Shown here: positions 16,131-42,440 of the stretch, in pieces
Numbering within the stretch: position 1 is the stretch's first letter
How the letters are laid out: each line of letters begins with the position of its first letter
Origin: Chrysomallon squamiferum
Lineage: Eukaryota; Animalia; Mollusca
NCBI GenBank assembly: GCA_012295275.1
Contig: CM022678.1
Location: 6,634,001-6,698,000, forward strand
Direction: 5' to 3'
DNA: 64,000 nucleotides
Made by a program: the position numbers and the translations under genes
The notes under the pieces: generated by a model
The model's input: the letters and a program-made list of their open reading frames with translations, nothing else
Told to the model about the DNA's origin: nothing
Database searches by the model: none

Positions 16131-16161
<31 letters not shown>

Positions 16162-16256: not shown

Positions 16257-16298
<42 letters not shown>

Positions 16299-16738: not shown

Positions 16739-16786
<48 letters not shown>

Positions 16787-17904
16787 AAATTCACTTAAAT
16801 TCACATAGACCTTTTTTTTTAATGATTACTTTTTAAAGAACAGAAATTAATCACTTCCAAAGTGTTTATTTTTTTCACTTTTCAGGAAAATCGGTTCGTA
16901 TGGCGATGAATTTATGCGTGCAATGCAGCCGGTGGTTGGCTATCTGCCTTACATGACGTGTCCTGGAAACCACGAACATTCATAGTAAGTTACACTGGAA
17001 GCTTTCTCATTGGTTGCTGAGAAATAAGGTGGCGGGGAGGCGGGACTAAATATGTAAATAGGCGATACAGAGGAAAGTATGGTTTGAATAGAGAATAAAT
17101 ATTTCCTGTTTTCAGTCTAACAGATTTTACAAAATGAGGTATTACTTTATTATTTTGAAAGATTGGTTATGCGTAATTATAATTCTTTTAAAAGAAGACG
17201 TTATTGTATTCGATTCAAATTTTCGTAACGATGGTGTCTGTGTGTGTGTGTGTGTGTGTGTTTATTTATTTATTTATTTTATATTATTTATTTATTTATT
17301 TATTCATTCATTCATTCATTTCATTTCATTTCTTTTTTCTTTTCTCTTTTTTTTTCACCTCATAAACACTATACATATTATAATATATTAAAAGTTAGTT
17401 TGAATATCATATATAAACCAAGACCATTACAAATTTGTATTTACATGAATGTTTACTAAATTGCTATAATCCCGTATCTGTTTTATCAAATGCTGTGGTA
17501 TGTACTGCACTGTCTAAGGCAAAACAAGACACATTCGGACTAATTAGTAAAATATGCCCATCATGTTGCGACAGCGGGTTTTCTGTTTGATATTATAATA
17601 ATAAAAAAAGTCGTATGTTTAACACCTAGAGAATATTTTGAAATGTTAATTTATTCATATATTCGTTCAGTTTTTAATTCACTTGTAGCAACTTCTCTAA
17701 CTACAAGAACAGATTCGTAATGCCTACAGATGAAGACAGTGTAAATATGTATTACAGGTAATTCATATATATATATATACACACCCACCCACCCACCCAC
17801 ACACATATATGTACATACGCAAAGAAGAACGCATAAACGCACACCACAAATGTATACTCATCCACTCAAATCATTCGTAAGGCAATATATATATCAGTAA
17901 TTAA

Positions 17905-17940
<36 letters not shown>

Positions 17941-18303
17941 CATAATAATAAACCACAAAATCTTTACATAAGTATTCGGTTCTATAATGATCTACCTCTG
18001 TACACATCACATCTATCTGTCTATCTACTCTATACACCCACATATATACGTATATATACATATATATTTCTGTTTTATATATATTTTAATATATATATAT
18101 ATATATATCATTTCATTTATATATATATATATACTATTACTACATAAACTACGGACTGAGCCAGATACTGGAACAATACACACACACACAAGAAGATTTA
18201 TGCTCGTTTTGTTTTCTTTTTTAATATAGACAGTTGTTAATATTTCCTTTCTGTTGGAACAATAACAGAACAATTACTAATAGTTCCTTTCGTTGTAACA
18301 GAG

Positions 18304-18379
<76 letters not shown>

Positions 18380-18714
18380 TGACAGAGAGAAAGAAAGACA
18401 AAGAGCACTGTAATCAAAGAAAAATGAAAAACCTGAAAACAATTTCTCAAACGATTTAAGAACAAGAATAAAAAGAATTTAAAAAAACGATCGGGTTAAA
18501 ACGGGAACAATAATAACGATAATAAACGCTCAAGGTGTGTAATATCGTGAAAACAGTATGCAGTATTACGTCACAAGATGACGTCATTTTTTCCAGAATG
18601 CTAATTTACCGGAGAACAGAGCTAAACAGCCTTGGGTCATAACAATGGGTCACAGACCGATGTATTGTTCCAACAGTGACCATGACGACTGCACGAAAGA
18701 GCGGGACAAGGTGA

Positions 18715-18775
<61 letters not shown>

Positions 18776-19479
18776 GTGTTGTTGTTGTTGTTGTTATTGT
18801 TATTGCTGTCATCATCATCATCATCATCATCATTATTATATCATTATTATTATTGTTATTGTTTTTGTTATTGTTGTCGTTATTGTTATCATCATTATGA
18901 TTATTATTATTATTGTTGTTGTTGTTGTCGTCGTCGTCTTAATCATCATCATCATCATCATTATTATTATTGTTGTTACTGTTATTGTTGCTGTTGTTGT
19001 CGTTGTCATCTGTTTACGTCTGTTGTTGTCGTCGTCGTTGTTGTTGTTGTCATCTGTTTACGTCTGTTGTTGTCGTTGTTGTTGTTGTTGTCGTTGTCAT
19101 CTGTTTACGCCTGTTGTTGTCGTTGTTGTTGTTGTTATCATCATCATCATCATCTGTATACGTCTGTTGTTGTTTGTTGTTTTGTTGTTGTCGTCATCTA
19201 ATTACGTCTGTTGTTGTCGTTGTCGTTGTTGTTGTCATCTGTTTACGTCTGTTGTCGTCGTTGTTGTTGTTGTCATCTGTTTACGTCTGTTGTCGTCGTT
19301 GTTGTTGTTGTTGTTGTTGCTGTCTGTTGTAGGTACGAGTTGGTATCCTCGAGGTGGACGGACTGGAGAAGCTGTTTGAGAAATATGGAGTCGACATCGA
19401 GCTGTGGGCGCATGAACATTCATACGAGAGATTCTGGCCTGTTTATGACAATAAGGTGAACAATAACAATAACAATAAC

Positions 19480-19562
<83 letters not shown>

Positions 19563-20675
19563 TAATAATAATAATAATAATAACAACAATAATAATAATA
19601 ATAGTAGTAGTAGTAGTAGTAGTAACGGTAGTAGTAGTTGAGTAATAGTAGCAGTAGTTATAGAAGCAGTAGTAGTAATACCAGTATAATAATAATATAG
19701 TAGTGGTAGTAGTAATAGTAGTAGCTGTTGTTGCTGTTTTAATAATATATATATATATATTGATTATGCAATGTAAAAAAAAATTATAATGTTAGGGAAA
19801 AACAGTTTGAAATATATCTTTTGTGTGTGCTTATATGCACAGGCTGTGCGTTTGTGCGTGTATATGTATGTGTGTGTGTGTGTTTTATTGTGCGTGTTTC
19901 AGAGTATACAGCTGACTGTAGAAAAGCTGTTGTTTCTGTTTATTTATTTATTGACTGTTTCTTGGTAAACTTACAAACGCAATGTTGAAAGTGGTATTTA
20001 AGTAATCAGTGCTTGTTAACTCGTTTATTTGTTTTTTTCTGTTATTTTTAGTGTTTGTCTCTCTGTTTCCCAGGTTTACAACGGCAGTTACGACGAACCA
20101 TACACAAATCCGAGAGCCCCAGTTCACGTCACAAGCGGTTCTGCGGTAGTAGTAGTATTACACACACGCACACGCACAAACGCACACACACGCGCAAAAA
20201 AAGGACAAGCACGGAAAACCCATATTCACACGCACACCTGCACTTATTACAGATGCAAACAGGAAAACGAACACATAAATACAAACGCAAAATGAACGCA
20301 CAAACATACGCGCACGCGCATACATTCATACACGCACACTGAATGAAATGAATGAATGAATAAATGAATGGAAGTTATTAAGGTAATGGATTAATTTCAG
20401 GGATGTCAGGAATTTATTGACCACTTTATCAAAAACCCTCCTTCGTGGTCGGCTGTTAGGATTTCTGACTACGGCTACGCCCGAATGTACATCTACAACA
20501 GCACGCACGTGCACATAGAACAGGTGTCGGATGATAAGGTAAGTTTTGTTAACGTTCTTGTAATGATTTGTTACATTTTCCACTTCGGGAATATTCGCGT
20601 GTTTCCGTATATAGTCGTTTAATTCGTTTAAAAAAAATGAAATAAAATAAAAAGATAATAATAATAATAATAGTA

Positions 20676-20715
<40 letters not shown>

Positions 20716-20724
20716 TAACAATAA

Positions 20725-20778
<54 letters not shown>

Positions 20779-21227
20779 AATAAATATATAAAGAGGCTAC
20801 TTAATACAGCAAACAATTTTGAAAAGTTATTTTACTTACGAGAGTATCAAAGTCATTAATCCATTGTAGTGACGTCATACAATTGCCTGGTTACAAAGAC
20901 TCTCTTTGCGCATGTTACTTATTAATAAACATGTTTTTATCGAGATTTACGTTGACGGGATGTATTTATTTATTTATTTTTTTTATTATTAATATTTATT
21001 TTTGTTTATAATATCTAACAAATGTAACTAAATGCCTACCGAATGATGAAACATAAAATATATTTAGTGAATAATCGATTTAATTTTAAAAGATGTTTGC
21101 ATTTACATTTTAATTTTTTTTTTTAGTATAATTTTGTTCTATCTGTTTTCAGGATGGAGCCATTGTCGACAGCATAACGGTAATTAAAGATCACCATGGA
21201 CCTTACGGATTTCAGAACTCGTCATAA
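12289..21227 (+). CDS. ACP7: Acid phosphatase type 7 / purple acid phosphatase long form (secreted metallophosphoesterase), 12 exons, about 435 aa
   Basis: Exons assembled by hand. Signal-peptide-like N-terminus (MFSLLCLTFCFASVFS), PEQIHLSYG, VTWST, FVDGG...YIH. All five purple acid phosphatase metal-ligand blocks are present: GDLG, GDFAY, GNHE, TMGH, AHEH. The C-terminal YTNPRAPVHVTSGSAGC...YGY...QVSDD.DG is collinear with human ACP7 as recalled. Exon 5 has a +1 insertion and exon 7 is corrupted. Confidence 0.92.
12967..14014. repeat. ~1-kb minisatellite, 20-24-bp unit (acacacagacatacacatagacag), in ACP7 intron 1
   Basis: Directly visible tandem units. Confidence 0.95.
14728..14931 (+). CDS. 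ACP7: ACP7 exon 2 (EPSEMMVTWST...FVDGGILHHTQYIH...LTPGKKY)
   Basis: Acceptor ctgtcag ends 14727; donor gtgagt at 14932; phase 1 to 1. Confidence 0.92.
15057..15490. repeat. Degenerate (GACA)n/cagtcaga repeat with an internal duplication, filling ACP7 intron 2
   Basis: ggcatacagacagtcagacagacaatgagacagataatcagacagtcagacagacaga occurs twice (about 15211 and 15340). Confidence 0.9.
15517..15696 (+). CDS. ACP7: ACP7 exon 3 (YKCSGS...WSPRLVLFGDLG...MYDAVLHIG)
   Basis: Acceptor tcttag ends 15516; donor gtgtgt at 15697; contains the DxG motif. Confidence 0.92.
16400..16425 (+). CDS. ACP7: ACP7 exon 4, 26-nt microexon (GDFAYDLMS)
   Basis: Acceptor ttctttcag ends 16399; donor gtaagt at 16426; encodes the GDxxY metal motif. 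Confidence 0.9.
16886..16984 (+). CDS. ACP7: ACP7 exon 5 (ENGSYGDEFMR...YMTCPGNHEHS), carries a +1 insertion at about 16887-16892
   Basis: Acceptor ttttcag ends 16885; donor gtaagt at 16985. The GNHE motif is in frame only after one base is removed near the exon start. Confidence 0.88.
17689..17757 (+). CDS. ACP7: ACP7 exon 6 (YNFSNYKNRFVMPTDEDSVNMYYS)
   Basis: Acceptor ttgtag ends 17688; donor gtaatt at 17758; phase 2 to 2. Confidence 0.9.
18084..18203 (+). other. ACP7: ACP7 exon 7 remnant, partly overwritten by (AT)n and (CA)n; splice sites not recognisable
   Basis: Fragments FN...IISF...YYYYINYGLSQILEQY....EDL lie in the order and near the spacing expected for ACP7 (WDLGPAHIISFSTEVYFFLHYG...QFRWLESDL), between exons 6 and 8. 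Confidence 0.75.
18597..18710 (+). CDS. ACP7: ACP7 exon 8 (NANLPENRAKQPWVITMGHRPMYCSNSDHDDCTKERDK)
   Basis: Acceptor ttttccag ends 18596; donor gtgaat at 18711. Confidence 0.92.
19003..19330. repeat. About 7 copies of gtcatctgtttacgtctgttgt embedded in (GTT)n, in ACP7 intron 8
   Basis: Copies at about 19005, 19049, 19096, 19150, 19194, 19234 and 19272. Confidence 0.88.
19333..19455 (+). CDS. ACP7: ACP7 exon 9 (VRVG...GLEKLFEKYGVDIELWAHEHSYERFWPVYDNK)
   Basis: Acceptor ttgtag ends 19332; donor gtgaac at 19456; HxH motif. Confidence 0.92.
20074..20145 (+). CDS. ACP7: ACP7 exon 10 (VYNGSYDEPYTNPRAPVHVTSGSA)
   Basis: Acceptor tttcccag ends 20073; donor gtagta at 20146. Confidence 0.9.
20401..20538 (+). 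CDS. ACP7: ACP7 exon 11 (GCQEFIDHF...WSAVRISDYGYARM...EQVSDDK)
   Basis: Acceptor tttcag ends 20400; donor gtaagt at 20539. Confidence 0.92.
21153..21227 (+). CDS. ACP7: ACP7 exon 12, terminal (DGAIVDSITVIKDHHGPYGFQNSS*)
   Basis: Acceptor ttttcag ends 21152; TAA at 21225-21227; AATAAA at 21263-21268. Confidence 0.9.
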   Translation, partial: DGAIVDSITVIKDHHGPYGFQNSS

Positions 21228-21525
21228 ATCATCTACTCCGTAAAAACATAAATACTACCACTAATAAAATCAGTCATTCACTTTACTTTCATCTCTTTCC
21301 ATATTTATTTAATTTTTAACTGATTGCCTTTATATACCAACGACTGAATGTACCAAAGATTGAATGTGGCTATTTCTTGAGGTCTGAAAGCATTTTAGTA
21401 TGCTCGGTTAATATCTGTTATTGTTTCTAAATTTGTTTTTTTTTTTTTTGTTTGTTTGTTGTTGTTTTTGTTTTGCATTTTTTTTATTTGTTTATTTTTT
21501 TTTCTCTCTCTCTCTTGTTTATATA

Positions 21526-23230: not shown

Positions 23231-23737
23231 CGTTTTTTTGTTCGCTAGAAAAATCGAATCTGCGATGTATTTTATTTTTATGTTGTCATTTAAAATAACA
23301 AAGTGAATAAGGCATTAAGAAAATGATATTATTATCGAGAAATTTAATATCTACAGGGTTTTCTTTTTCGAGGTGTTACATTGTGTGTGTGTTGTTTATC
23401 TACCTTAATCGCGTTTTACAATCAATTGTTTCATTGCAACTGTTGACTCTTTAGAAACAGTTCTGTGAGAATAAAAGATGACAGTAAGCTTTAATGAAGA
23501 CCAGTGTCTCATAATTTGATCGTTGTGCATCTTAAATCAAGTCTGTTAAAAGTCTTTTTGTACATAATTATTTCATATTTCCCTTTTGGTAACAGGCACA
23601 AGAATAACATCCATAAGAAACGTGAATTCTTTTTTACACGTACCTTCTTGTTGATAGATAATCACGTAACGATGACGTAATAAATATTTAAATAAATAAC
23701 AAGGAGTGAATACCGGTTAAAAACAACAAACAAACGT

Positions 23738-25200
23738 AAATGGCTGAGTAACTTTATTTGTTACCTAATGAACTACTACGATTAACAAAGTAAATACCAG
23801 ATGAGGTAAAATGCACATGTATTTATCATAGTTAACAATATTGAACAACAAATTATCTGATCCCTATGATTAATTGCAATATTTTTTTTTTATACAGCTA
23901 AATGAATTAAAGAAATAAACACTGACCTGCAACGATTTTTTTTTTTTTTTTTTTTTCAAAAGAAATATTTATTTTCACAAAACTGGCACACGGTGGTGCC
24001 TAAACAAAAAAAGGAGGAAAAACGATTCAAAAAAGAAAGCGTGAAGGAAAAGAAAGGGAAAAAAAAAAAAAAAAAAAAAAAAACGAAGAGAAAATACAGT
24101 GGTTGTCATTACTATTCCCTGAATTGTAATGTTTGAGAAAAATGAGATTTTGAGCAAACGATTTGATGATATCGATGATTTTATTAAACATGCTGTTGTA
24201 AGTTAAAACACCAGTCCTTTCTGAATTTTCGTAAAATTAGTCTCGATTTAACTCCGACTTGTATGCCTCTACGTAAACTACAAAGAGGTCGATAGTACAA
24301 ATATTTTCTTATTTACGTCTGGCTAATTTTCAAAATTGATTTATATGATGCCAAATAAAACTGTTTAAGATAACTAATGTTACACATAATCAACTGGTTT
24401 TATAAGCAGTAATTTGTCATTGTTTTGGGTATATCGTTTGTTTTTTTACAGTTCGCCATTTAATTATTGTTTTCTATAAAATATAAAACGTCACCATTTG
24501 CTCAAAATCTCTCATCCCAAATGAGGTAGTCTCCAAGTATTCGCAGACGTACAGTCCGCAATTTTGAAACAGAATTGAACGAAACCGTGTATCCACGAAT
24601 ACACCACAAAAAAAAAAAAAAAAAAAATGGCCGATGATTCAGCCAACCAAAAAAGTATACAAATCTGTACAAATATATGGTGAATATACACCCATATATT
24701 GCAAATCATCGAAGGCAGCCATATTGTATACAGAATTGTATACGTACATCACAATACACTGCAAAGATTAAATAATAAATGTACATGAAGGCTGCATACC
24801 TGTTTCATTCGAGTATCCTACAGAGTTAGTTGTTGTCGATGCACCAGTAGTAACCGTCGTAGTAGTAGTAGTAGTAACAGTAGTAACAGTAACAAATAAA
24901 ACTGTGACAGGATATTTAGTTATTGCAATTTTGAATGATTTAAAAATAATAATATTAAGAAGGCTGATTCAGAACAACAGAAAAACAAAAAAAAATAAAT
25001 AAATAAATAAATAAATAAAATAAAATAAAATAAAATACAATAAAATAATTTGATAATAAATAACAAATTAATAATATGGTCCAACAACAAACTGCATGGA
25101 TCCTGTTTGTGTAATGATAGGATACTCTTATAAAAAACAGGTAAGTGATCTTCAAAGGTGAACATGGTTTTCATTATGAAATATCAATTATAAATCAGAA

Positions 25201-25233
<33 letters not shown>

Positions 25234-27523
25234 TTAAAAGCAGTCTGTACTTTTATGAGTATTCTGTTCTTAATGTTTCCTCTATTTATGCTTTTAACTG
25301 ACTCAATCATCCAGAGGAACTTAAAATAAATGAATGGCCTTCCCATAATCATCTAAAAAAAAAAAAAAAAAAAAAAGGAGAATATTTCTGTAACAATCAG
25401 TATCTCATTCATTATAATTATTGACTAATTTCAAATTTATAGCTTTTGTTCATTTATGACAAAGAAATAACAACTGCACCTTCTGTGACCATCTCAAAAT
25501 GAATAAGTATGTATATCAGTTTTTATTATAGATATTTCATTAAGATTTCCGTTTATTTTAATGTGAATCAGTTCAGAAACTATCAAAGCCTTACGTAATT
25601 AAATTTTTTAAAAAGATTAAATGTGAAGTTAGCCGAGAGAGAAATTTGTTTAAAAAATAATATCTGCAGCTGTTAATTCACATTGTGACAATATTGAAGT
25701 ACATAAACATTTTCAGTTACTGATTTTGAGCTATTTATAGGAACCAATCACATATTTGTTATTATTCTGACCATCCAGGAAACAACCCAATCAACAAACA
25801 GTAAATATTAACTGCGATAATCAATCCAGCAGTGTTCTCAGTACCAATCACCGAAGAGGAAATATAAACTTCCTAAACTATATTCTATTTTTTTTTTAAT
25901 CATCCACAAATGAGCAATCAACAAACAAAAAAATATTAACTGCCAAAGACCACCAAGAAAAAAATGTTGAATAATTTCATCTTTTTTAAATAACAAATCA
26001 ACAAACAGAAAATATTAACTGTCAAAAAAAAAAAAAAAAAAATTAAAATTAAACAAAATAATAATAAAAATGAAAAAAGAAAACTACAAATAATGATAGA
26101 AAATAAAAACAACACAAAAACCTATCAAGTAAAATGAACTTTTGGCAAGAATGCGTAGTTTGTAATTCTATATCACATTTACTTTTTGAAGAAACTGAAC
26201 ACAAATTATTGCCCTTTGGGGAAAATGCCAAAGTATGAAACATATTAATTCACCAGGAATTTGTAACTGAAAAAAATAATCTCAAATTTCACCGGGATTA
26301 ATATTTTTCACTTCATCAACATGTCATAGCCTGTGATACTCCAGAAGGAAAAAAACTAACCTAAATTGTGTTTAAACAAAAAACATTTAAATTTTTTTTT
26401 TTTTAATGTTAATAAAGAAGAAATAATTAATGGATACGGAAATAAAAAAAAAATGTGCCTGTTTGTCAAAATCAAACGTTATATAAATTTGAAAAATAGA
26501 TTTTAATTTTTTTTAAATAACTAAAAAAAAAAAAAAAATTAAAAAATATTATTAACTGATATCTTTCATAATTTTATTAATTTTTAATATATTTTTTTTT
26601 TATTATAAAATTACAAATATTGCTTTGAAAACAGCCAAAAACATTTTGCTAATTTTAACTCTTTTTTGACACTTTATTTCTGAATACACTTCTTCAAACC
26701 TTTCAGTGCAACAACACCATTTGGTCATTATCATTCTCTTGACCATCTGACCATCACTTTTTCAAAATAACAACTCTGTTTGGTCATTACCAATCACTTG
26801 ACCAACTAACCATCACCTGTGTCCAGTGACTGTCCAGAATCTACTTTCAGCACACTAACCAGATATTATAGAAAAACTGTCCACATTCAGAAAAAAAAAA
26901 AAAAAAATGTTTCACCTGAATTATCTTCTTACATATAAACTATTAGTATTACATATTTCAAAACGATGCTAACTTCACATTTAACTTTTTAACAAGACTG
27001 AAAGTAATTTATAAAACTGACTTCAATATAATCTTAATTTTTGAAATTAAGGTGCAGAGCTATAGAATAATTTTGTTGAAAAAAAGGACCCAGCTGTGAC
27101 ATATAAACTCGTCATTGTTATAGAAAAATTCTTAAAAATTATTTTCGCACAGTAAAAACATCATTACCCTCCTTCAGTATTCCAGTTGACTGAAAACCTA
27201 AAGAGTTTTATTTAATTTCTTATTTTCATAATCCTAAAGAAATTTTTTCTTATTTATTTTAAAAAAGCACACGATTCATCTGAGCTGCCATATTTCATTT
27301 TACTCAAGTCCTCTGGATTAATGATCCGATATGGCCAAAAATCTTGCTTGAACGCAGTAGAAGAATAAGAACAAATTTTTAATTTAAAACCTTCAATTCC
27401 TATCTCAAGTTTCATTCAATCGTACTCTTCCAAAGTTTTTTCTGGACAGATATAATTTTCTTATTTTATAACATACTTGACAATGATCACCATGTTCATT
27501 GTGAAAATTCTGTGTGTACAGTT

Positions 27524-27578
<55 letters not shown>

Positions 27579-27900
27579 AAAACAAAGAAGAATAAAAAAA
27601 GCAATGTACAGTTTTCATATATGCACATACAAGCATTTATATATATGTAAAAAGAAGGAAAGAAAAAAATATGAATATTCATGGCAGTTCTCCACCAATC
27701 AAAAATAAGCTGCCTGTGCATGACCTGTGACCCCTATCTGCTCCTGAGTGCATTGAAGTACATGAAATCTTGAAAGCTTTGCATAATTCAGTCTAGTGAA
27801 CTTGTAGTAACATGTCAGCCCTTTTAGTGCCAGGTGTCAGATACGTTACAGTGTTAATTTAGTGATTTAATAACTGTTTGTACTTATTATGTCAATTGAC

Positions 27901-27941
<41 letters not shown>

Positions 27942-28150
27942 CAAGTGGAGAATTATTACTTGAATTCTGTATTATACATATCTTTATTTTCATCATCATC
28001 ATCATCTTAATTAATCAGCTGATATTTTTCCATAATCTGAGTTCCTTGCATATGAACAGAGACAAGAAAAGTTTGAGTAGAAAACAAATATCCCTAGCCA
28101 TCAAAAAAAAAAAAATAATAATAATAAATAAAAATAAAAAAAAAAATAAA

Positions 28151-28194
<44 letters not shown>

Positions 28195-28491
28195 TAAGTA
28201 AATAAATAAACATAAAATAAATAAAAAATAGTCACATTATGACGATTATGATTCTGATTCAAGCTTCAAGTGTTTTGATGACACTAAAAGGGTTAACTCA
28301 AATTAATATCAGAATTTCACAGATAACAACAAATCAGCAATGCTAATATACAAACTTGTAGTAAGAGGTAGAATTAAATGAACCTGTAAAAGGTAAAGAT
28401 GAGATGGGGGGGAGCAGTATATTAATAAACATTATTTATATTGATAAATTTCCTTTTTTATTATTAGAGAGGTAGAGACGAATAAAATTTA

Positions 28492-28530
<39 letters not shown>

Positions 28531-28844
28531 GAAATGTAAAATTGGTCTAACTGTAAGTGCTTTATAATAAATATAAAATTTATTTTGTCAAAATAATTTA
28601 CCTTCTGTAAACTTCTTACAGTTTGACCAACCAAAATATTATAAAGGATAAAAAAAAAAAAAATAAAAATAAAACAATTAAACTCATCATAATTTGACCA
28701 GAGGTATGTTTATGTTTAAAAGGAGCAATGTTAAATATATACATAACTTTACCGACACAGAATGAACCCTTGCAAGATTCTAGCAAAAATATAAATGCAT
28801 CAAGTAATCGCATACATCTTTATCACATCTCACTACAAAAGTGG

Positions 28845-28880
<36 letters not shown>

Positions 28881-31660
28881 ATATGAGCAGAGGTTACAGG
28901 GTAACAATCATACACAAATATAATAAAAGGCCTCCAATAAAACTCATTTTTATATCCCGTTTTATTATCAATGACTGCTCCCTTGTTATTACTTCCTTTG
29001 CCCACTCTAAGACATACTTGGAAACTGAAAACGTCTATTCAGTTTTATATTTTATTTTCAGGTCTTATTTTTTTCAAAAGTAATAGTTATTATTATAGTT
29101 TTTTTAACTTTTTTTTTTTTTTAATTGTTATTACTTTGAATATATAATGATGTCATGATTCATAAACGGCTTTTAAAACAGCAAATCAGTGAAAACAAGG
29201 GAACAGTCAAAAATCAATTCACTGCCTGGTGTCACGTGATCAATATAGAAAGCCATTATGGCGCTAGTCTACTATATTTAAAAATAATAATAATAAAACA
29301 AAATAAAATAAACGTTTCCACAAGTATATACGACAGTAGTAACATGAAGATACATAAAGGTCACACACAACAGTAACACAAGAAATAAAATCTCAGCTAA
29401 ATAGGGTCGAGACAATTATATTCTTTCAGTGAATTTAACAAAGTTAATTAACTATGTAACAGTGGTAAAAATTAGAACATTAAGAACACGTTACCATGAG
29501 AACAATACAAAATGTACTCAAACGAAGAACATTCTCTTTAGATAATCTCAAGTGTTAACAAAATATATTCTGATTATAATATAGTAACGTACTAACCTCA
29601 TTAATATCTTGATGGCAGGGTTATCTTCCTTCCATTATAATGATATGAATATCATACAGAATTATCCTCCTTTAATTACAGTTAATTTACAAATGTATTT
29701 AAAATGAATTAATTGCTGGAAAAAAAAAAAAAAATCTAATTAAAATAAAATAAAGCAAAACGATTATTAATCATAAAATTTAAAGATTTAAATAATTAAA
29801 AGTAAATAAAGTTATCTCCCTTCGATTACAAGGATTATAATTATCGAAAATGTATACATATTAAAAAGAAATAAATTGCCAAAACAATAAATTTTTGCTT
29901 TATTCACTGAAAGAATAAAACTGCCACAAAAATACTAATAGAAAATGCAAGAAGCCAAAAATATAATAATAATAAAAAAAAGTGTTATTTATATTACATC
30001 AAGACATCGAAAAACCACCATTAATCTGTTTTTGCTTGTAATTTCCTCCAACAAACATTGAGCAACAAGTTTATTTTTTCTTTCTTACTACTGCACCTTA
30101 CACCGGTCACTGAGTAATCGTAACTTGTTCGTAAATGTATCAACAACGTTAACAGATAATTTGTAACAGAACATGCGCCATTTTCAGTTAATCATTATTT
30201 TGATTTGGGTTAATGTAACACACATATTAGTACAACGAAATTAAGCTGTTAGAATTAAGCATAAATGATGATAATAATAATCATAAAGGGCAAAATTGTA
30301 GCATGATCGTAGCGAATAATTATTACAATAATATTTAATTATTTGCGTAAGTTTTTCTTAATAATAATAATAATAATAAATGAAGAAAAAATGAAAAAAA
30401 TGGTTAGAACGCTGATGATCTAACCATTATCCTGAATACACGATCATTATTTAAAGAAAAATAATAATTCCTCATTTATAAATGTCTTTAGACGAGAAAA
30501 CTATATTAAGCTCTGTCCACTAACATTACCACAAAATCAGTGATTCTGTTATTTTAATTGAAAAAAAACAACAACAACAACAAAATGCCAACCAGTAATA
30601 CACAATATACAGGACCATGCCACAGTAAAAAATTTAGCCAATAAAAGAAATGAAAATATATAAGTGATACACCTAACAATGAAATGAGACAAATTTAACA
30701 ATTTATGGAGAATGTGATTATACACGGAAACTACAAAACAACAATGTTAATTCAAAATCAGCACTATTATGTGTGAGATATATATATGTATAATATGTAA
30801 AAGAATTTTAAAAAAATGAAGATTACCCTAAAAAAAAAAGCATTCTGATACAAAAACAAATTCTATTTCTGTATCGCTGACTTGCATTTCTTAATCTGCC
30901 CTTTCATTCATTTAATTTGCTATGATTTTTGCTTTGAATTTTTTTTTTTTTTAATGGGATCTGGTATTTTCTGGACATTAATAAAATATACAAATTGTCA
31001 AAAATTCAAATATATGATTACAATAAACTGTAAAACCATTGCTGTCACTTTTAAAACTGAAATATCCCAAACAAAGTAAAATGATATCAAAACATGAAAC
31101 AAATATTCACCTTCATAATAGTCTGTTTAGTCTGACTGATATTAATTCTTAGAATCGTAGTAAATAATGATTCTACTTTTATAAAATTAAAGAAACAACA
31201 AAATATATATATATATATTTCCATCCTATTATCTAACCAACAACTCCTGACATGAATATTAGGACTTCAACGACAACAGAACAAACTATACACCAATGTA
31301 TATATCCTTTAGCCTTATATTTCCATAGCAAACCCAGTGTATATTTATAATGATTAAACTAAAATACATGGAAGAAGACCAAAAAAAAAAAAAAAAATGT
31401 GCAGAAGTAAAATGAAAAATAAAAGCTACATTATGACAGTGATAAAGGGACACAAACGTGGTGGGTGTGGCAAAAAGCGCCCTCTTGTTAAAACAAGGCC
31501 CACTACTGGAAATACTCGGAAACTACTGCCATTTCACCGGTTGCTATTCAACTCCATGACAACCAGATCTGAACGCTCTGCTGTGAACAGCTGTGGTCAT
31601 CTCAGAACCAGAGACATTAAGTTGATTAATAATAATAATAATAATAATATTAATAATAAT

Positions 31661-31758
<98 letters not shown>

Positions 31759-32816
31759 TAATAATAATCATAATAATAATAATATTAATAATAATAATGA
31801 TAATAATAACAATAATAATAATCATAATAATAATAATAATAATAATAAAAAAACAAACCAAAAAAAAAAAAGTAAAAAAACAACAACAGAAAACAGAAAA
31901 AATAAGAAAAACAAATAAGGTAATAAACACCAATATCTTTAATGGAGATAAAAAAAAATAAAAAAAGTAAAAATTATATTACTAATAATGTATTTTCTTA
32001 AATTTCATATACTTTCATATTTAGTTTATTATTGTATTTCAAATTTTTTTCACACACACACAAACAAACAAAAATAGTAATAATAAAACAATTAAAAAAA
32101 TTAATAATAAAATAATAAATAAATAAATAATAAAAATAAAATAAAGAAAAGGAAAACAGTCTTAATGCCACTGGTTTCTGAGAGAGAGCTGCATGCTGTA
32201 ATGAACTAGTTGTCATGGTAACACAGACAGACAAAACCACTCCATAACTCTAAAAGAAAACGTAAGCAAGAATATAAATAACTGTTAATGGACAGAAAAT
32301 CAAAATGTTTGACAGTTGTATGGTTAGTAGTTTTTGTTTCAGATTATTTATTACAGTGACAATAATTAAAAAAAAAAAAAAAATCAGAAGTAATATTTAA
32401 CCTGTATTTATTTTTGAAAATTTAATTTTAGCTATAAAGCTTTAATATGAAGTAAATAACCTTTATTATTTTAGTATTTCTTTTATTTATTTCTTTATTT
32501 ATTTAGCTGTAGTGGTATTTTTAGTTTTATTTTTGTAACACTAAGAAAAGCAGAAAAGTAACTATGCCAAAGAAATGTAACAAAGCTATCAAAATAAATC
32601 AGCCTGTCTTTGGTGCATTTAAAAATATTTAAAAACCCAGTAATAATAGTCGTAACAATATTCAAAATATAATGTAACAATTTCTGAAAACAATTTAACC
32701 TTGAGCTTCTAAAAAACAAAAAACAAAAACATTTGAAAAACAGATCTGGGGTAACAAAACACTTAAAATTAGAAGATTTTTTTACTCTGTTTTAAATGTA
32801 CAATTATAAATTTAAA

Positions 32817-32850
<34 letters not shown>

Positions 32851-34252
32851 CATTAAAACCACTAACTACTTCCTTTTAAAAAGAAAAAAAAAATTATCCT
32901 TGTTAAATTTTTTTTCAGTTAATTATTATAAAAGTATTATAAAAAAAAGAAAGAAAAAAAAATCTTAACATTAAATTTTTTATTTTTTTTAGAAGAAACT
33001 TCACAAAAAATGGAAACAGAAGACAGCTAATTTGAATCAATTCCAAAATGCCATTTAATTTTTATTTTATTAACAATTAACAAACATTTATTTTTTTTCG
33101 TAATGCTAATGTTTGAGAAAATAAAAAATAATATTACTTCCGCTAACCATTAAAATATTTTGCAATTATCAGCAAGTCCAAAATCACAGACATAACGACC
33201 GAAATATCAAATTAACACAACTTTAACCCCCTGGTGGCAAGTCAAGGTAGATAATCAAGACCAGTTCTTAATAATGCTTTGTTCAAAAAGTGCTTCCATG
33301 ATATACAAGCTGTATAATGTGTCTCTATGGTTGTTACCACACAAATGGAAACAGAAAAAAAAAAAATATATATATATATATATATATTAAAATCCCTGCC
33401 TTGGAGAAAATTTAAGATCCTTTTGATAAAAAGTGTCTTGTAAAAGTGTAAGAAGATTCGTGCATATGTGAATATTTATGACCAGGACGAACAACTTGTA
33501 AGGAGGTAGTGAAGATCTGACTTCAAGACAGTTATTTCAAAAAAAAATAATAATAATAATAAATTATTTTATATTTGTAGATTTTAAAATATCTAAATAT
33601 TGTTCTTTTTTTTCCCTGAATTCTGTTATATAAAAAAAAAAAAAAACCTGAGTTTTTACAAGAACAAATTTAAAAAAAAAATAAAACTAAAAAAAAAATT
33701 AAATTAAATAAAATAAAAATGTCAACTAATGATGTTAGTTGGACTTTTTTTTTTTACAGTGAAACCTGCCTAAACGAGACATCATGAAACGATTGTTATA
33801 TTTCAGTTTAGAAGAGAGATCCAAATATCGAGGGTTAAAATACAGAGTTATTTCCCTTGGTGGAGTAACTCTGAAACCACAAAAGATGTTATGAAAATTG
33901 TTAAGTTTAAGCAAGTTTTTGTTTAAATCAGGGTTCAGTTTAGGCAGTTTTTCACTGTGCATGTATATCTATATAATAATTACAGTCTAAATTTAACAAT
34001 TATTAGTTACAGAACATTAGCCAATCAAAGCAGAGTACAAGTGTTATTTAAAGTTGTTATGTGTGAACAAACCTTTAGATGATTAACACACTAAATATCT
34101 GAATGGTGAAAATGTTTGTTAACAGCCATAATTAATTATGTGAGATATAATAATTTTAATAAAGAAGGAAGAAAATAACAGATAAATAAATGTATTGTTA
34201 CTATATTTATCAGTTCAAAACTTGGTAAAAATGAGGTAGTAGGGTATAAAAA

Positions 34253-34291
<39 letters not shown>

Positions 34292-35490
34292 TGTTACAAT
34301 TTTCTAAAACTGTCAGAATATTTATTAGTAGATGAAAAACATTAAAAAAAAAAATAAATACCCTGATTATTTTTGTAATGGTAAAAAAAAAAATAATATG
34401 CTTGATGTCGCAGAGTATACCCGATTATTCTTGATTTTAAAAAGAATAAAAAATAAAATAAAATAAAATACAAAATAAATAACAAATTCTGAAGGAATAT
34501 TTCAGGTTTTTTGAGACCTTGTTACTGTGCATATTTCATTCTGACAGGTTTAAATATATATATTTATATTTTATTTTTTTTAACATATGGAAAAAAAATA
34601 AAATAAAAACTGAATATAATATTTAGTTTTTCTTATTTTCCTATTTTTGTTTTTTATGTTTTTAATATATTTGTTTTCTCTCCATTTTTCATTAAATATT
34701 TACTTTTTTCACTCCTTCAAATAAACATTTTAAGTTTTTCACATTATAATTGTTTTGTTTTCCATTCTAATAAATATTTATTTTTTCCTTCAACATGTTT
34801 TTTTTTTTTTTTTTTTTAACTTTTGCAATATCAGAACTTCCTGGTTTCAAATTTTTATAATTTAAAATTGTTTTTATATCTCTTTAGTTCCTGAATCAAT
34901 AACTAACCAAGAATTAAAAAAATCAGTTTCACAAACTGAATAGTAATAAAAAAAAAATACATTACTTTATTATTTTCTCAAGTGTCTAGATTTTAAAAGA
35001 TTTTTGATGAAAATCACACAAATAATGGCTGGATGAGCCTATGCACAGTAACAAAAGATATTTTCAAAACAAAAAAAAAATAAATAAAAAAAAATAATAA
35101 TAATAAAGGAAAGAAATGTTAGTGGATATGAAAAACAAATGTATAATTTGCATTTTCAGTGCTTTTAAAAGTTCCTGAGAATTTAGGTTACCTGAAGGAC
35201 AAGAAAATCTTTGTTTTTTTATAACTGTTAAACAGATGGACAGACAGACAGACAGATAAACTGTCCACTGAAATTATTTAGCAGTACAGAAGTAGAAACA
35301 ATCAGAATAAAAGGATTAAAAAAAAAAAAAAAAAAAAAAATTAAAATTTTGAAAAGAAAACAAAAATTATTAAAAAAATAAAACATCTGTTTATTTTTAT
35401 AGTAAAAGAATTCTCAAAATATTTAGATATAAACATGTATGTATATATATAAAACTTAACTTTCTGTTGTATATAATTGGGTCTTTTGCT

Positions 35491-35531
<41 letters not shown>

Positions 35532-36123
35532 GGTATCATTGAACTGTCTCTCTCATTTCCTTTCATTTTATATTCAAATATAATGTTTGAAACTATTTAT
35601 TTTTGGAAAAAAAAAAAAAAATCCACCAAAATGCAAAGAGTAAAATGTAAAGAAATATAGGTTAACTGGTACTCAAGATATGCTTAGTCAAAAGTGGAAG
35701 CAAAAATAAGGACCAGTAGATGATTTTGGCCTTTTGTTAATAATAAAAAAAAAAAAAATATGAAAACATTCCTGTTGTCATGACAACCAAGACAGAACCA
35801 TTACCTCACCATAATGCAACAAAACATATAAAGCTAATAAACCAAGTAGGAACTACACTGACTAAAACAGATAGGTACAATATATTCTTAAAAAAATAAA
35901 ACAATGAAATTCAACATAATGTACATGTATGAACAAAAACAATGAATGAGAGCAATAATAAAGATAATATATTCTACACAACAGTATTTCATAATGAGGT
36001 AGCTTTAATTGAAGACTGTATCATACAAAAACAAAAGTAGTTGTTTAGAAAAAATTCTCTTGAGTAGCATAGGTAGGTTTTACTAAAATAGTCACATGAA
36101 AGAGTTTAGTTTTTCTTAAATTA

Positions 36124-36163
<40 letters not shown>

Positions 36164-37334
36164 CATTATTAACGCAAAAAATCCACTCTTTTGGCTTTTT
36201 AAAAAGAAATTAATTACATTTATTAATTATAATTTAATTAATAAATTTAAAGAAAATATTTTCGGAAAATGGCAGACCACGATGGTACCAATATTAAAGT
36301 TTCTCGTCCCTCAACCAAAACCGATATAACTTAATCTTTAAAATTGTGAAACAAAATGGCTGCCTGTCTTACAACTCTTTCATGCGACTCATTTATAAGT
36401 ATTTACCAGTAATCATTAACTCTGCTTATGACTCAAGATAAAATCATCAACAATACATCATCATCCACAAAATAGTAAAAGAAATTTAAAAAAACAAACA
36501 AACATGGTTAATAAACAGATTATTAATAACAGCACAGTATGAAATAAATCTTTGTAATACATTGGACTCTGTTATGGCTTTAAGCTAGACACATTGTTAG
36601 TTGAAACTAAAACAGAAATTCTGTACAAAAATCGATGACAATATCTATAATAATATTATACACATTAACTACAAGTATGCAATGACAAACAGGAATAATA
36701 TAAAAAAAATGAAATACGTTATGTATTGAACTAACTATAAAAAGTTAAAAGAAGAAAATACAAAGAAAAAAGAAAAAAAAAAATAAAAAAATAAAAATAA
36801 AATAAAAATATTGACACCGGTTTGTATATTTGATGTTATTGTGATGTCTGCACAATAAAATATCAAATAACGAATGGGTTGTGCAAAACGGCTGCACATG
36901 AAATTACACTGGATTAAGGAATGAAACAAAAATATTTTTAAAATTAAATTAAAATGACAAATGAAACATTATAAACAAGAAAGCTGCATATGAAATAAAA
37001 CTGTTTGTTATTGAAAAAAAAAAACCCAATAAAATGATGTAATGAAATATCATATACAAGAAAACTGCGTATGAAATTTAAACTAGATATGATGGAAAAA
37101 ATGTGATAATAATAATAATAATAATAACATTAATACTAATAAAGTGACTCATGAAATACTAAATATAAGAAAAACTCGAAAAACTATGCTGACATATGGG
37201 AAAAATTATTAATAAGAAAAGTAATAATAATGAAAAATGATATTATATATATCGTACAGTAAAGATGTAATTAGTTATTCTTTTTGAAACAGAACAGTAA
37301 AGATTTTTAAGAGGAAGGTAAATAATTATAATCT

Positions 37335-37375
<41 letters not shown>

Positions 37376-37969
37376 TTGAATCTAATCAAATGAAACCAGT
37401 CAGATGATATTAAACTAAAACTGTTAAAGTTTATTAACACTTCTTCTAAGTAACCAATCAGAACAGAGAACAGAATGAACCAATGGAAACAAACGATACA
37501 GTTTAGTAACGAAACAAACCTCCATTAAAATGTCATGTCTCATATGCTCCATATCAAAGAAAAGGAAATTAAAAAAGAAAAAAAAAAAGGAGAATATATA
37601 TATATATCTATAAATTATTTTTCTCCTTTTTTTTTTTTTTAACAAGTGAATTGAAGAGCTTACATTTATAAACAGAGTTATGTAACTTGAATAAGTAATG
37701 TGACTTGAATGATAAACATATTATATATATAATTTTTATCATATTTTCTGATATAAGAATTCAAGGTACATAACTCCTGAACCTGATTTTAAAGCCCTGA
37801 GATTATCAATAATATACTGCTGTTTATTTTATTATATAAGAAATGTTATTAATATTAATATTATTATTTTTTATTTTTTATTATTTTTTTTTTTCGGCTT
37901 TTAAAAATAATAACAATAAAGAAACCCTAAAAGTCATTCATGAAATATATGTAAATTAATAAATTAACG

Positions 37970-38003
<34 letters not shown>

Positions 38004-38758
38004 AAATTTCACTTAATACTTTTTATAACTATCCACACTTTCCTTTCTTTAACGATAAGAAAAGAGTCATTTATCATAATAAAATAATAATACACTTTTC
38101 TTGTAGATTTAAAATTTAAAACAAAAACATTTAACAAAACACATTCTTAAAAATCAAACAAAACATCTATCAACATTTATATTTTCAATCCATTAACTCT
38201 AACAATAGTAAATTTAATTAAAACAGTAATAAAAAATAAAATGATAATGAGACTTTTCATACCTAAAAATCCAACAATGGACTGATCCAGCAATTAAAAT
38301 CGGGGCGTCTTATGAGAAATGAAGGGGTGGAAGGGTTGTAAAAACATAACAGCACTACGAATATGATTGTAAATGTTTACAATAATGAATTTCTCTCACC
38401 GGATGTTATCAGAATGTTTGATCAGCCGCACAAACTTATCAGTAATATTTTCTTACAGATCTACGTTTGTAAATTAAAAACAAAAAGAAATGGCAATGAA
38501 ATCAATCTAAATTAAAAAGGACATTTTTGTTAGAAACCATTTCAAGAATTTCATCCCTCTCAGAATTCTTGTAATAGCAAGTCCAAGATTTACTTTATAT
38601 ATTTATTTATTTTTGAACCATTTTGAAGAATGTATTATATTTATACCTATATCTAGCTATCTATATATAGATAAATATAGATATAAATATATATATATAT
38701 ACATAAAAATACACACATCTGGTTTGAAAATGTTATTTTTCCTAGACTAAATTCAGGA

Positions 38759-38806
<48 letters not shown>

Positions 38807-39536
38807 TTAATGTTACTTAATTAATTATCCTTGAAATGGCTTCCACTAACTTCTTAACCCAAAAGAGCAACATTTGTTAGCTCTTCATCATTAATATCAT
38901 TATTATCTCTGTAATATTAATTTAATATTAAAAATCTTCAACCACAAAATCTCAAAAATAAGTCAGAGAAAACTAAAACACCCATATGATCATTATAAAA
39001 ACAAAGTCATTAATTAAAGTCATTAAGCATTAATTAACAAAGAGAGAAAACAAAAACGGTAAAAAAAACCCATAAGTCTGTTATATCAAAAAAAACAAAA
39101 AACAAATCTCAATTAAAAACATTAACATGATTAATTGAGATGGATAATTAAGAGTATTAATTAATTAAAAAAAAAAAAAAAAGTTAATTAACCGTAGAGT
39201 CTGATTATAAAATATATATTTTCTTACAGCACTTTATAAAATGTTAACACAAAAAGCGACTTTTTCTAAAAAATACATCTAAAGCTTATGACCTTCTGTC
39301 AATAAAAATTAATTAACACCAACTATAACTGCAGACAACAACAATAAAAACAATTTTAAAACACAAAGTTAAGATATATATATATATATGTAATATTTTT
39401 TTTTTTTCTAAAACAATTTTGCATAACAAAAATACAGCTTAAGATAATCAATAATCAGGTGCATAATAACAGACATATGGCAAGTTTGAAATATTTTCGT
39501 GTATGGTAAATTATTTTTTGTTTTAATAATTTTTAT

Positions 39537-39586
<50 letters not shown>

Positions 39587-40043
39587 CTTGACTAGATTGT
39601 TCTAATCAAGTCACACACACAGACGTACAGACAAAGACAGCGTCACCTGATTGACAACAGTCACTGTGTTGTTTCAAGATGGCCGCCACCATCGAGCAGA
39701 GCAGACGTGAATTTTTCTCTCCTCCAAAAGTAGAAGATTATGCTTCTCCCAGTTCAAAATCTTGAAGAGTTATCTACTCCTAAGTTTAAAAAAAAATAAT
39801 AATAATAAAAAAAAAAAAAGAAGCCTGAGGCATGTAGTTTCTCCCTGATGTGATATAGCGTCAACAATCTGAAAAAAAAAAATAAATTAAAAAAAAAAAA
39901 AATTAAATAAAACAGATTAAAGTATAAATATTATAGTAGTCAACTTTAAAAAATTTAAAAATTTTAAAAATTTAAATTTGAGTAGTTCTGAAAAGTGTTC
40001 AATATTTGAAGCAGTTCTTTTTATATTATTTATTATTTATTTT

Positions 40044-40135
<92 letters not shown>

Positions 40136-41008
40136 CTCTCTCTGTGTCTCTCTCTCTCATATATTCCACACAAACTCAAACATGTAACTAATAACTGACT
40201 AAATAAATATAAATAAACAATTTAAAAATGCCTGTTATCACCTGTCATTTTTTTCAGGTAGATAAGTAATGAGTGATAGACAGGTAAAAAGTTATATATA
40301 TATATATATATCATACATTCCACACAATCTCCAACACTTAACTAATAACTATCTATATAAATAAATACACAAAAATACCTGTTTTTTCAGGTATACAGGT
40401 AAACTTTCCCTCATCAAGGGAGTGTTAGGTATAATGGGTTTTTTTTTTCTCTCTCTCTCACATTCCACATTGACTCAAATCCATAACTATCTTTTTATTG
40501 AAATAAGAACCCCAAAATACCTGGTCTCACCTGTATAATTTCAGACACACAGGTAAAACTATCCCTGAATGAGGGACAGTTGGTTATAAAGTTTAACTAC
40601 CTATAAATAATAACTATCTATATAATAATAATAATAATAATAAAATAATAAACAAATAAAAAAAAATACCTGTTCTCACCTGTGTAGTTTCAGGTACACA
40701 GGTAAAACCATCCCTGAACGAGGGGTAGTTAGGTATAAAGTTTAACTATCTCTATAACAACAACAATAATAATAATAATAATAAAATATTAATAAATAAA
40801 AAAAATAAAAAAATGACCTGTTCTCATCTTGTGTAGTTTCAGGTACACAGGTAAAACCATCCCTGAACGAGGGGTAGTTAGGTATAAAGTTTAACTATCT
40901 ATATAACAACAATAATAATAATAAAATAATATCTATCTATCTATCTATCCATCCAAATAAGAACACCAAATAAAAAAAATGACCTGTTCTCACCTTGTGT
41001 AGTTAGTT
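23738..41008 (-). other. Putative very long 3' UTR / 3' flank of the zinc-finger gene
   Basis: No credible ORF. U-rich on the minus strand. Long (CA)n/(GA)n tracts are largely absent between about 24 and 40 kb, unlike nearby introns. Strand-specific let-7 and miR-125 seed matches. Candidate AATAAA (minus, 23758-23753) followed by a GU-rich element (23735-23719). The 3' end is inferred. Confidence 0.4.

Positions 41009-42440
<1,432 letters not shown>

What the first reader, a model, noticed from the sequence alone, without database searches (positions are those of the whole stretch)
23802..36002. Strand-specific cluster of let-7 target sites downstream of an Ikaros/Hunchback-like gene: candidate heterochronic module
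Seen: the + strand repeatedly spells the 5' end of let-7 (UGAGGUAGUAGG...), so a minus-strand transcript would carry complementary sites. 8mers TGAGGTAG are at 24522, 34232 and 35995; the 34232 site extends to TGAGGTAGTAGG (let-7 nt 1-12). 7mer-m8 GAGGTAG is at 28365, 28469 and 33503, a 7mer-A1 at 23802 and a 6mer at 28701. Outside the zinc-finger gene I found by eye only one other GAGGTAG (2031) and one reverse complement (about 17992). A rough hand estimate for G-poor DNA (about 12% G) gives well under one GAGGTAG per 17 kb, against six seen. Known: C. elegans hbl-1 (hunchback-like) is repressed by let-7-family miRNAs via its 3' UTR, and Hunchback and Ikaros act as early temporal-identity factors in neural progenitors. 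Inference: this gene is a let-7-timed temporal factor controlled through a giant 3' UTR.
Basis: partly seen in the sequence, partly recalled or inferred. Interest (0 to 1): 0.85.

Follow-up and report, generated by a model that had tools for sequence, protein, structure and literature searches.

The report
Mollusc-wide let-7 target zinc-finger gene
A snail gene for a Hunchback/Ikaros-type zinc-finger protein carries twelve matches to the let-7 microRNA seed on its sense strand, as does its counterpart in a bivalve (nine), so it is likely a major let-7 target in molluscs that would be switched down as let-7 rises after the larval stages.

Summary
All eight listed sites are real. Seven are 7/8-mers, against 0.61 in shuffles (0 of 1000). 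After repeat masking, CTACCTC ranks 1 to 4 of 16,384 7-mers. Four more sites lie in the last coding exon (4 vs 0.5).

An orthologous bivalve locus (L002) repeats the pattern independently: seven sense matches within 3.1 kb of the stop, none antisense. The let-7 hexamer ranks 1 of 4096 jointly. One coding site has the same spelling in both species.

The gene belongs to a mollusc-wide family with three N-terminal fingers and a Hunchback/Ikaros-type C-terminal pair. It is not orthologous to either by finger sequence.

A 17.3-kb 3' UTR is likely but not shown. No gene intervenes, U-skew runs to 24 kb and the best poly(A) signal follows the last site. Unstranded RNA contigs cover half of the one 2.5-kb stretch laid. 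Oyster let-7 rises about 70-fold from trochophore to juvenile.

The timing role is untested. As assembled, the gene is broken twice, probably by assembly error. Verdict: likely a conserved let-7 target and a new member of a known kind.

The parts
43264..43334 (-). First coding exon as assembled (ATG at 43332). It matches both ends of the Gigantopelta N-terminal segment (residues 1-68) but lacks the coding sequence of fingers 1-2
   Evidence: Sequence read; tblastn of P0001 finds residues 8-19 here and no match to residues 20-67 except a weak cross-match to the C-terminal fingers
41009..42419 (-). Last coding exon: end of finger 2, finger 3, linker with KLEQ and VMDLS peptides, C-terminal Hunchback/Ikaros-type finger pair, stop at 41009-41011; frameshift near 41700 as assembled
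   Evidence: ORFs, Pfam zf-C2H2, 80% and 71% identity to P0001 in two frames
42090..42097 (-). Coding let-7 8mer spelling V-S-T-S; the same 11 letters occur at the V-S-T-S of bivalve L002
41934..41956 (-). Two adjacent coding sites: 7mer-m8 (41950, duplex -22.5 kcal/mol) and 7mer-A1 (41934)
41261..41268 (-). Coding 8mer in the T-T-T-S peptide; the peptide is conserved but is not spelled as a site in the two bivalve loci
23740..41008 (-). Inferred 3' UTR, up to about 17.3 kb
   Evidence: No other gene; U-rich on the minus strand in 16 of 17 1-kb bins; RNA contigs on part of 31950-34420
35995..36002 (-). let-7 8mer site
34232..34243 (-). let-7 8mer extended to 12 contiguous pairs plus four 3' pairs (-22.6 kcal/mol; 1.4% of 3000 random-flank 8mers reach -22)
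33503..33509 (-). let-7 7mer-m8 site
28365..28706 (-). Cluster of two 7mer-m8 sites (28365, 28469) and one 6mer (28701)
24522..24529 (-). let-7 8mer site
23802..23808 (-). Most distal site, 7mer-A1
23700..23758 (-). Candidate distal poly(A) signal (AATAAA at 23758) with a GU/U-rich downstream element, 44 nt after the last site
   Evidence: Highest ad hoc downstream-element score of 48 AATAAA in 21.3-41 kb
14574..21270 (+). Convergent neighbour: purple acid phosphatase gene, last exon 21132-21227, AATAAA at 21263; it bounds the UTR on the left
   Evidence: Pfam PF16656, last exons read, poly(A) signal

Best explanation
This mollusc-wide zinc-finger gene carries a strand-specific excess of let-7 seed matches in its last exon and downstream, in both a snail and a bivalve, and is therefore likely a direct multi-site let-7 target whose output would fall as let-7 rises from larva to juvenile. 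Shown: the sites, their excess, their strand, their recurrence in an ortholog, and the protein architecture. Inferred: the mRNA runs from the stop at 41009 to a poly(A) signal near 23758, probably with shorter alternative ends; let-7-loaded Argonaute binds the eight UTR and four coding sites; repression is additive and strong once let-7 becomes abundant. Predicted by analogy only: the protein binds DNA through its N-terminal fingers, pairs through its C-terminal fingers, and holds cells in a larval or early state, as C. elegans hbl-1 does.
For: Window statistics. The bivalve locus L002 was fetched after the hypothesis was fixed. It has 2 8mers, 4 7mer-A1 and 1 6mer within 3.1 kb of the stop, none antisense, vs 0.38 7/8-mers in shuffles (0 of 1000). 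TACCTC ranks 1 of 4096 hexamers jointly in both species under both Markov orders. Coding sites exceed synonymous-codon shuffles: window 4 vs 0.51 (p 1e-4); L002 7mer-m8 2 vs 0.29 (p 0.03); L001 2 vs 0.16 (p 0.006). The V-S-T-S site is spelled GTG TCT ACC TCN in both species; the chance of the S-T-S spelling is 0.018 and 0.030. VSTS persists in 17 of 40 family sequences in a variable linker. The A opposite let-7 nucleotide 1 is favoured (6 of 7 sites in L002), as microRNA targeting predicts (established knowledge). UTR extent. Oyster let-7: 5,600 RPM in trochophore, 43,000-46,000 in pediveliger, 386,000 in juvenile (PMC4138081 supplement row). A Biomphalaria prediction table lists let-7 against a 'protein hunchback-like' gene (PMC7328434 supplement), the name RefSeq also gives this family's Biomphalaria member; that the two are the same gene was not established.
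Against: No contig bridges the coding exon to the UTR. The RNA contigs are unstranded, shallow (depth 3-9), from one study and without a silent control, and none of the listed pieces from the three RNA runs covers the 33503 site. 41 other AATAAA lie between the stop and 23758. No alignable UTR block is shared with L002, so individual UTR sites cannot be called conserved. L001 has no site in its 600 nt after the stop. The near-invariant T-T-T-S peptide is not spelled as a site in either bivalve. Coding excess in L002 is weak (6mer p 0.08). C. elegans ztf-16, of the same protein family, has a predicted let-7 site whose mutation had no effect (bioRxiv 10.1101/2022.06.20.496913, passages). Oyster eggs already show 56,000 RPM let-7. 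The gene as assembled lacks fingers 1-2 and has a frameshift.
Confidence: 0.7

Rival explanations
1. The gene is a true let-7 target but not a developmental timer: let-7, abundant in all adult organs, simply caps its level or confines it to let-7-poor cells such as germ line or stem cells.
For: let-7 is 230,000-444,000 RPM in all eight adult oyster organs sampled. The gene's downstream region is present in RNA contigs. No expression series for the gene was seen.
Against: let-7 rises about 70-fold from trochophore to juvenile, so a 12-site target would be repressed in a stage-dependent way. The known multi-site zinc-finger targets hbl-1 and chinmo are timers (PMC10139094 passages).
Confidence: 0.13
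2. The gene is decaying in this species (real loss of fingers 1-2 plus a real frameshift before the C-terminal pair), and the sites are relics of ancestral control or now act on a non-coding transcript.
For: The first exon lacks about 135 nt relative to Gigantopelta yet stays in frame from ATG to the donor. The frameshift near 41700 cannot be removed by a small intron I could find.
Against: The C-terminal pair is 97% identical to Gigantopelta. The unrelated LRR gene in the window also needs two frame changes, and contigs show indels against the window, so indel errors look common in this assembly. The sites are intact and in excess.
Confidence: 0.08
3. The word is kept for another reason: a site for an RNA-binding protein, a DNA-binding factor, or + strand splice donors (AG|GTA) of an antisense RNA, and it only coincides with the let-7 seed.
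For: GAGGTA resembles a donor. CAGGTA is mildly raised (10 vs 4.1, partly from the 149-nt tandem duplication).
Against: Canonical donor words are not raised (AGGTAAG 1 vs 0.58, GTAAGT 4 vs 3.4, GTGAGT 0 vs 1.9). The enriched variants are exactly 8mer, 7mer-m8 and 7mer-A1. One site pairs 12 nt contiguously. DNA motifs would not be confined to one strand in two species.
Confidence: 0.06
4. Chance, repeats or let-7 gene copies: a post hoc pick, a dispersed repeat carrying the word, or degenerate let-7 hairpins on the + strand.
For: The 34232 site resembles mature let-7 over 17 nt.
Against: p 3e-8 survives correction for all 16,384 7-mers, and the excess recurs in L002. Site flanks are no more alike than random (18.0 vs 18.4). 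Rfam finds no let-7 family match at gathering or at E up to 5. No hairpin forms at the four + strand stretches folded (z 1.27, -0.05, 1.27, -1.75).
Confidence: 0.02

Closest known systems
C. elegans hbl-1 (hunchback-like), repressed by let-7-family microRNAs
   Same: C2H2 factor with an N-terminal finger cluster and a C-terminal finger pair; let-7 acts through its 3' UTR (PMC4973599 and PMC10139094, passages).
   Different: This gene is not a hunchback ortholog by finger sequence (24-27% identity to a hunchback-type protein). It also has coding-exon sites. No genetics exist for it.
Drosophila chinmo, let-7-Complex target
   Same: Zinc-finger factor down-regulated by let-7 through 3' UTR sites at the larva-to-pupa transition (PMC10139094, passage).
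   Different: Chinmo is a BTB-zinc-finger protein; no BTB domain is listed for this family. miR-125-type matches are raised in the window (TCAGGGA 6, three in a tandem duplication) but not in L002.
C. elegans ztf-16 (hunchback/Ikaros-like family)
   Same: Same family architecture; heterochronic and downstream of let-7 (bioRxiv 10.1101/2022.06.20.496913, passages).
   Different: It has one predicted site, shown to be dispensable, so regulation there is indirect. This gene has twelve sites.
Ikaros family (IKZF1-5; Pegasus has the same 3+2 finger count, recalled)
   Same: C-terminal pair 39% identical to an Ikaros-type protein (P0188). Some database entries name family members Ikaros-like, Pegasus-like or hunchback-like.
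   Different: N-terminal fingers lack the Ikaros signature (recalled motif). Unnamed paralog-like families are closer over the C-terminal pair (45-49%).

Membership tests
Hunchback/Ikaros-like (HIL) zinc-finger family | N-terminal or central finger cluster plus a separate C-terminal finger pair (definition as in the ztf-16 preprint) | tested here: met
   3+2 fingers in P0001 and orthologs; in the window's assembly fingers 1-2 are missing
Hunchback/Ikaros-like (HIL) zinc-finger family | C-terminal pair homologous to the Hunchback/Ikaros pair | tested here: met
   44% to P0067 (hunchback-type) and 39% to P0188 (Ikaros-type), pairwise E 7e-14 and 4e-12; both types recognised by recalled motifs
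Hunchback/Ikaros-like (HIL) zinc-finger family | C-terminal pair mediates dimerisation | not tested
   No complex prediction was run
hunchback orthologs | Hunchback-type central DNA-binding fingers | tested here: not met
   24-27% identity of P0001 residues 21-105 to P0067, one comparison only; the tree did not include P0067
Ikaros/Pegasus orthologs | Ikaros-type N-terminal finger signature | tested here: not met
   Recalled Ikaros/Pegasus motifs matched only P0188 among the proteins then held; no Ikaros chain among the best 60 of 233 PDB hits of P0001
Direct let-7 targets | Canonical seed sites on the sense strand above background | tested here: met
Direct let-7 targets | Sites or site density conserved in orthologs | tested here: met
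   Density in L002 and one coding site in both species; only two orthologous DNA loci were available; positional conservation of UTR sites could not be assessed
Direct let-7 targets | Sites lie in the mature mRNA | tested here: inconclusive
   Met for the four coding sites; for the UTR only unstranded contigs on one 2.5-kb stretch
Direct let-7 targets | Argonaute binding and seed-dependent repression | not testable with these tools
   Needs CLIP or reporters
Heterochronic / temporal identity factors | Stage-graded expression and stage-shift phenotype | not testable with these tools
   Only let-7's own rise in oyster was seen

The most novel reading that the evidence does not exclude
Molluscs have their own heterochronic switch: let-7 represses this mollusc-specific Hunchback/Ikaros-like factor through coding and 3' UTR sites kept since gastropods and bivalves split, ending larval programmes at metamorphosis. 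It parallels nematode hbl-1 but uses a different family member, implying either an ancient let-7 link to this finger family or its convergent recruitment.
Probability: 0.35. Interest if true: 0.85.

Novelty: new member of a known kind. Interest (0 to 1): 0.63.

Why it matters
let-7 is among the most abundant and most stage-graded microRNAs in molluscs, yet my searches found no paper that names a principal developmental target for it in this phylum. This gene gives a specific candidate with a clear test in oysters, abalone or pond snails: measure it across metamorphosis and mutate its sites. If it holds, the let-7 / zinc-finger timing logic known from worms and flies extends to Spiralia, which bears on whether heterochronic circuits are ancestral or re-invented.

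Tried and rejected
No whole genome is held for this window, so there is no genome-wide background; controls are the rest of the window, shuffles and all-k-mer ranks.

I first read the near-invariant K-R-x-V-T-T-T-S peptide (64 of 66 family proteins) as a conserved coding let-7 site. Rejected: both bivalve loci spell it ACA ACG ACG TCA.

Co-targeting by miR-125 or miR-100 (seeds recalled): TCAGGGA is raised in the window (6 vs 0.3-0.6) but partly through a tandem duplication and not in L002. TACGGGT occurs 2 times in L002 and 0 times in the window. Not supported as conserved.

let-7 gene copies, repeats and splice donors were rejected. A small intron as the fix for the frameshift near 41700 was tried by eye; none restores the frame.

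blastn of the window's downstream region against L002 and L001 gave only low-complexity or short matches. Scans of genome contigs and viral contigs gave no ortholog.

The tree of C-terminal finger pairs was a quick, poorly resolved tree of 118 rows and 51 columns, and my pattern dropped the hunchback- and Ikaros-type rows. It shows only that 13 of 14 family rows group together (support 82).

The L002 synonymous test used wrong frames and is void; it was redone.

The word shares (RNA runs 0.22-0.31 of a stretch that is 14.5% coding) are not used as evidence beyond the part laid.

Earlier findings of this scan: three look-ups returned nothing. Accession searches found no paper.
Full report
Observation. 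Read on the minus strand, 23.7-41.0 kb holds three 8mers, three 7mer-m8, one 7mer-A1 and one 6mer for let-7, and one 7mer-A1 on the opposite strand (35802). All 5 of 5 8mers and 9 of 10 CTACCTC of the window lie in the 29% occupied by the last exon and the downstream region.

Is it more than chance? Markov models of order 0-2 expect 0.13-0.17 CTACCTC against 6 seen; orders 3 and 4 give p 4.7e-5 and 7.7e-3. Block-wise dinucleotide shuffles give 0.61 7/8-mers against 7, with 0 of 1000 shuffles reaching it. To remove the post hoc choice of let-7, I ranked all 16,384 7-mers after masking simple repeats: CTACCTC is rank 1 (order 2) or 4 (order 1). The flanks of the sites are unrelated to each other. 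Rfam finds no let-7 gene, four + strand stretches form no precursor hairpin, and canonical splice-donor words are not raised. The coding sites also exceed synonymous-codon shuffles (4 vs 0.51, p 1e-4).

The gene. The C-terminal finger region is 97% identical to a Gigantopelta aegis protein (P0001), so the window is from a closely related gastropod. Relatives at 70-83% occur in other gastropods, bivalves and a cephalopod, and a chiton member appears in the cluster of P0063. The family has three N-terminal fingers, a variable linker with conserved short peptides, and a C-terminal finger pair. That is the Hunchback/Ikaros-like arrangement as defined in the ztf-16 preprint (10.1101/2022.06.20.496913, passages). 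The pair is 44% identical to a hunchback-type and 39% to an Ikaros-type protein, and 45-49% to unnamed paralog-like families; the two types were recognised by recalled motifs. The N-terminal fingers are only 24-27% identical to the hunchback-type protein. No non-mollusc ortholog was named among 68 hits or the best 120 of 486, which is weak evidence of absence. So it works like, and has the architecture of, a HIL factor, but should not be filed as hunchback or Ikaros.

A caveat on the assembly. The first coding exon (43264-43334) keeps both ends of the Gigantopelta segment but lacks fingers 1-2, and the last exon changes frame near 41700. The LRR gene at 6-9 kb also needs two frame changes, and the separated parts are highly conserved, so assembly error is more likely. 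No reads were laid on these places, so this is open.

Independent test in orthologs. A metagenome scan gave two orthologous loci out of 45 pattern matches; both resemble heterodont bivalve proteins such as P0030. L002 holds the whole gene and 6.3 kb after the stop. It has 2 8mers, 4 7mer-A1 and 1 6mer, all within 3.1 kb of the stop, and none on the antisense strand there. Shuffles give 0.38 7/8-mers, 0 of 1000. Taking both species together, TACCTC is rank 1 of 4096 hexamers under both models. L002 also has two coding sites (p 0.03 for the 7mer-m8, 0.08 for the 6mer). One of them, at V-S-T-S, shares eleven letters with the window's 42090 site; codon usage gives 0.018 and 0.030 for that spelling. 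VSTS is present in 17 of 40 family sequences (isoforms included) whose linker could be delimited. L001 has two coding sites (p 0.006) and none in its 600 nt after the stop. Against a blanket reading, the near-invariant T-T-T-S peptide is not spelled as a site in either bivalve, and no UTR block aligns between species.

A possible third species. A genome-wide prediction table in PMC7328434 (supplement rows) pairs Biomphalaria let-7 with BGLB004730 'protein hunchback-like', using 3' UTRs and strict seed pairing (methods passage). RefSeq gives that name to this family's Biomphalaria member. I could not show that the two are the same gene. It is one row among 182 let-7 occurrences in a file that was cut when stored, and the main text never mentions hunchback.

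Is the region a 3' UTR? The neighbour is a convergent purple acid phosphatase gene whose last exon ends near 21227, with AATAAA at 21263. No other gene is evident between it and 41009. After masking, the minus strand is U-rich in 16 of 17 1-kb bins from 24 to 41 kb, against 4 of 9 bins from 15 to 24 kb. Of 48 minus-strand AATAAA in 21.3-41 kb, the one at 23758, 44 nt past the last site, scores highest on an ad hoc GU/U-rich downstream measure; 41 others precede it, so shorter ends are possible.

RNA evidence. Reads were laid only on 31950-34420, 6.6-9 kb past the stop. Three of the four RNA runs listed, all of one study, cover 655, 909 and 636 nt with their listed long pieces (union 1243 of 2471). 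Run X5, of unrecorded type and with even depth near 50, covers 1503. The RNA-to-X5 ratio here is 0.42-0.60, while their total contig letters stand at 0.10-0.18, which argues against mere DNA carry-over. However, the runs were chosen for holding this region, contigs are unstranded, none bridges to the coding exon, and no silent control was laid. I put the full 17-kb UTR at about 60%.

Mechanism. Shown: sites, excess, strand, recurrence and architecture. Inferred: let-7-loaded Argonaute represses the mRNA through up to twelve sites, the strongest at 34232 with 12 contiguous pairs (-22.6 kcal/mol with Biomphalaria let-7 from PMC7328434). In oyster, let-7 is about 5,600 RPM in trochophores, 43,000-46,000 in pediveligers and 386,000 in juveniles, though 56,000 in eggs (PMC4138081, supplement row). 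A multi-site target would therefore be expressed in larvae and damped afterwards. That the protein sets larval or early cell states is analogy with hbl-1, chinmo and Ikzf1 (PMC10139094 and PMC4973599, passages). ztf-16 warns that a predicted site can be dispensable, but there it was a single site.

Novelty. Searches for let-7 with Ikaros or hunchback and molluscs gave one unrelated paper each (listings only). Related searches (listings only, except passages of PMC4138081 and PMC13544226) and accession searches found no study of this gene. The library lacks most subscription papers, and bioRxiv supplements are closed. The supplements of PMC12261956 showed no match to the gene's identifiers. The kind of system is known; this member, and its apparent conservation across gastropods and bivalves, was not found described. 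Verdict: observation confirmed, interpretation partly supported, new member of a known kind, interest 0.63.

Noticed in passing
window 43264-43334 (-): The first coding exon lacks fingers 1-2 yet is in frame from ATG to the splice donor (23 codons). If real, the species would make a short-finger form resembling dominant-negative Ikaros isoforms (recalled). A partial copy of the exon end lies near 43110.
   Followed up: partly
window 40532-41050: A 149-nt tandem duplication (three full copies plus the original) of the last codons and stop region. Each copy carries TCAGGGA, a miR-125-type 7mer-A1 (seed recalled); further TCAGGG at 39848, 37800, 34366, 33619 and 24122.
   Followed up: partly
window 6391-8756 (+): Apparently intronless leucine-rich-repeat gene spread over three reading frames (two frameshifts), probably assembly indels.
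   Followed up: partly
window 14574-21270 (+): Purple acid phosphatase gene with small exons among long microsatellites, convergent with the zinc-finger gene.
   Followed up: partly
window 46300-46800: A non-repetitive, GC-richer block upstream of the zinc-finger gene with several TGACCAG words; possible promoter, 5' exon or enhancer.
   Followed up: no
L002 5734 and 6500; L001 882 and 1480: Coding let-7 sites in the bivalve orthologs; the L002 8mer at 5734 spells the L-P-A-T-S peptide that recurs in bivalve family members.
   Followed up: partly
L002 9977 and 10192 (approximate): Two TACGGGT words (miR-100-type seed, recalled) downstream of the bivalve stop; none in the window's region.
   Followed up: partly
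proteins P0074-P0191: At least four further unnamed families with the same C-terminal finger pair and different N-terminal fingers: a probable unreported expansion of Hunchback/Ikaros-like genes. Whether they also carry let-7 sites is unknown.
   Followed up: partly
window 23741-41008 and L002 7714-14051: TGATTGG (CCAAT-box complement) is raised on the sense strand in both species (7 and 4; joint rank 1 of 7-mers under order 2); unexplained.
   Followed up: no
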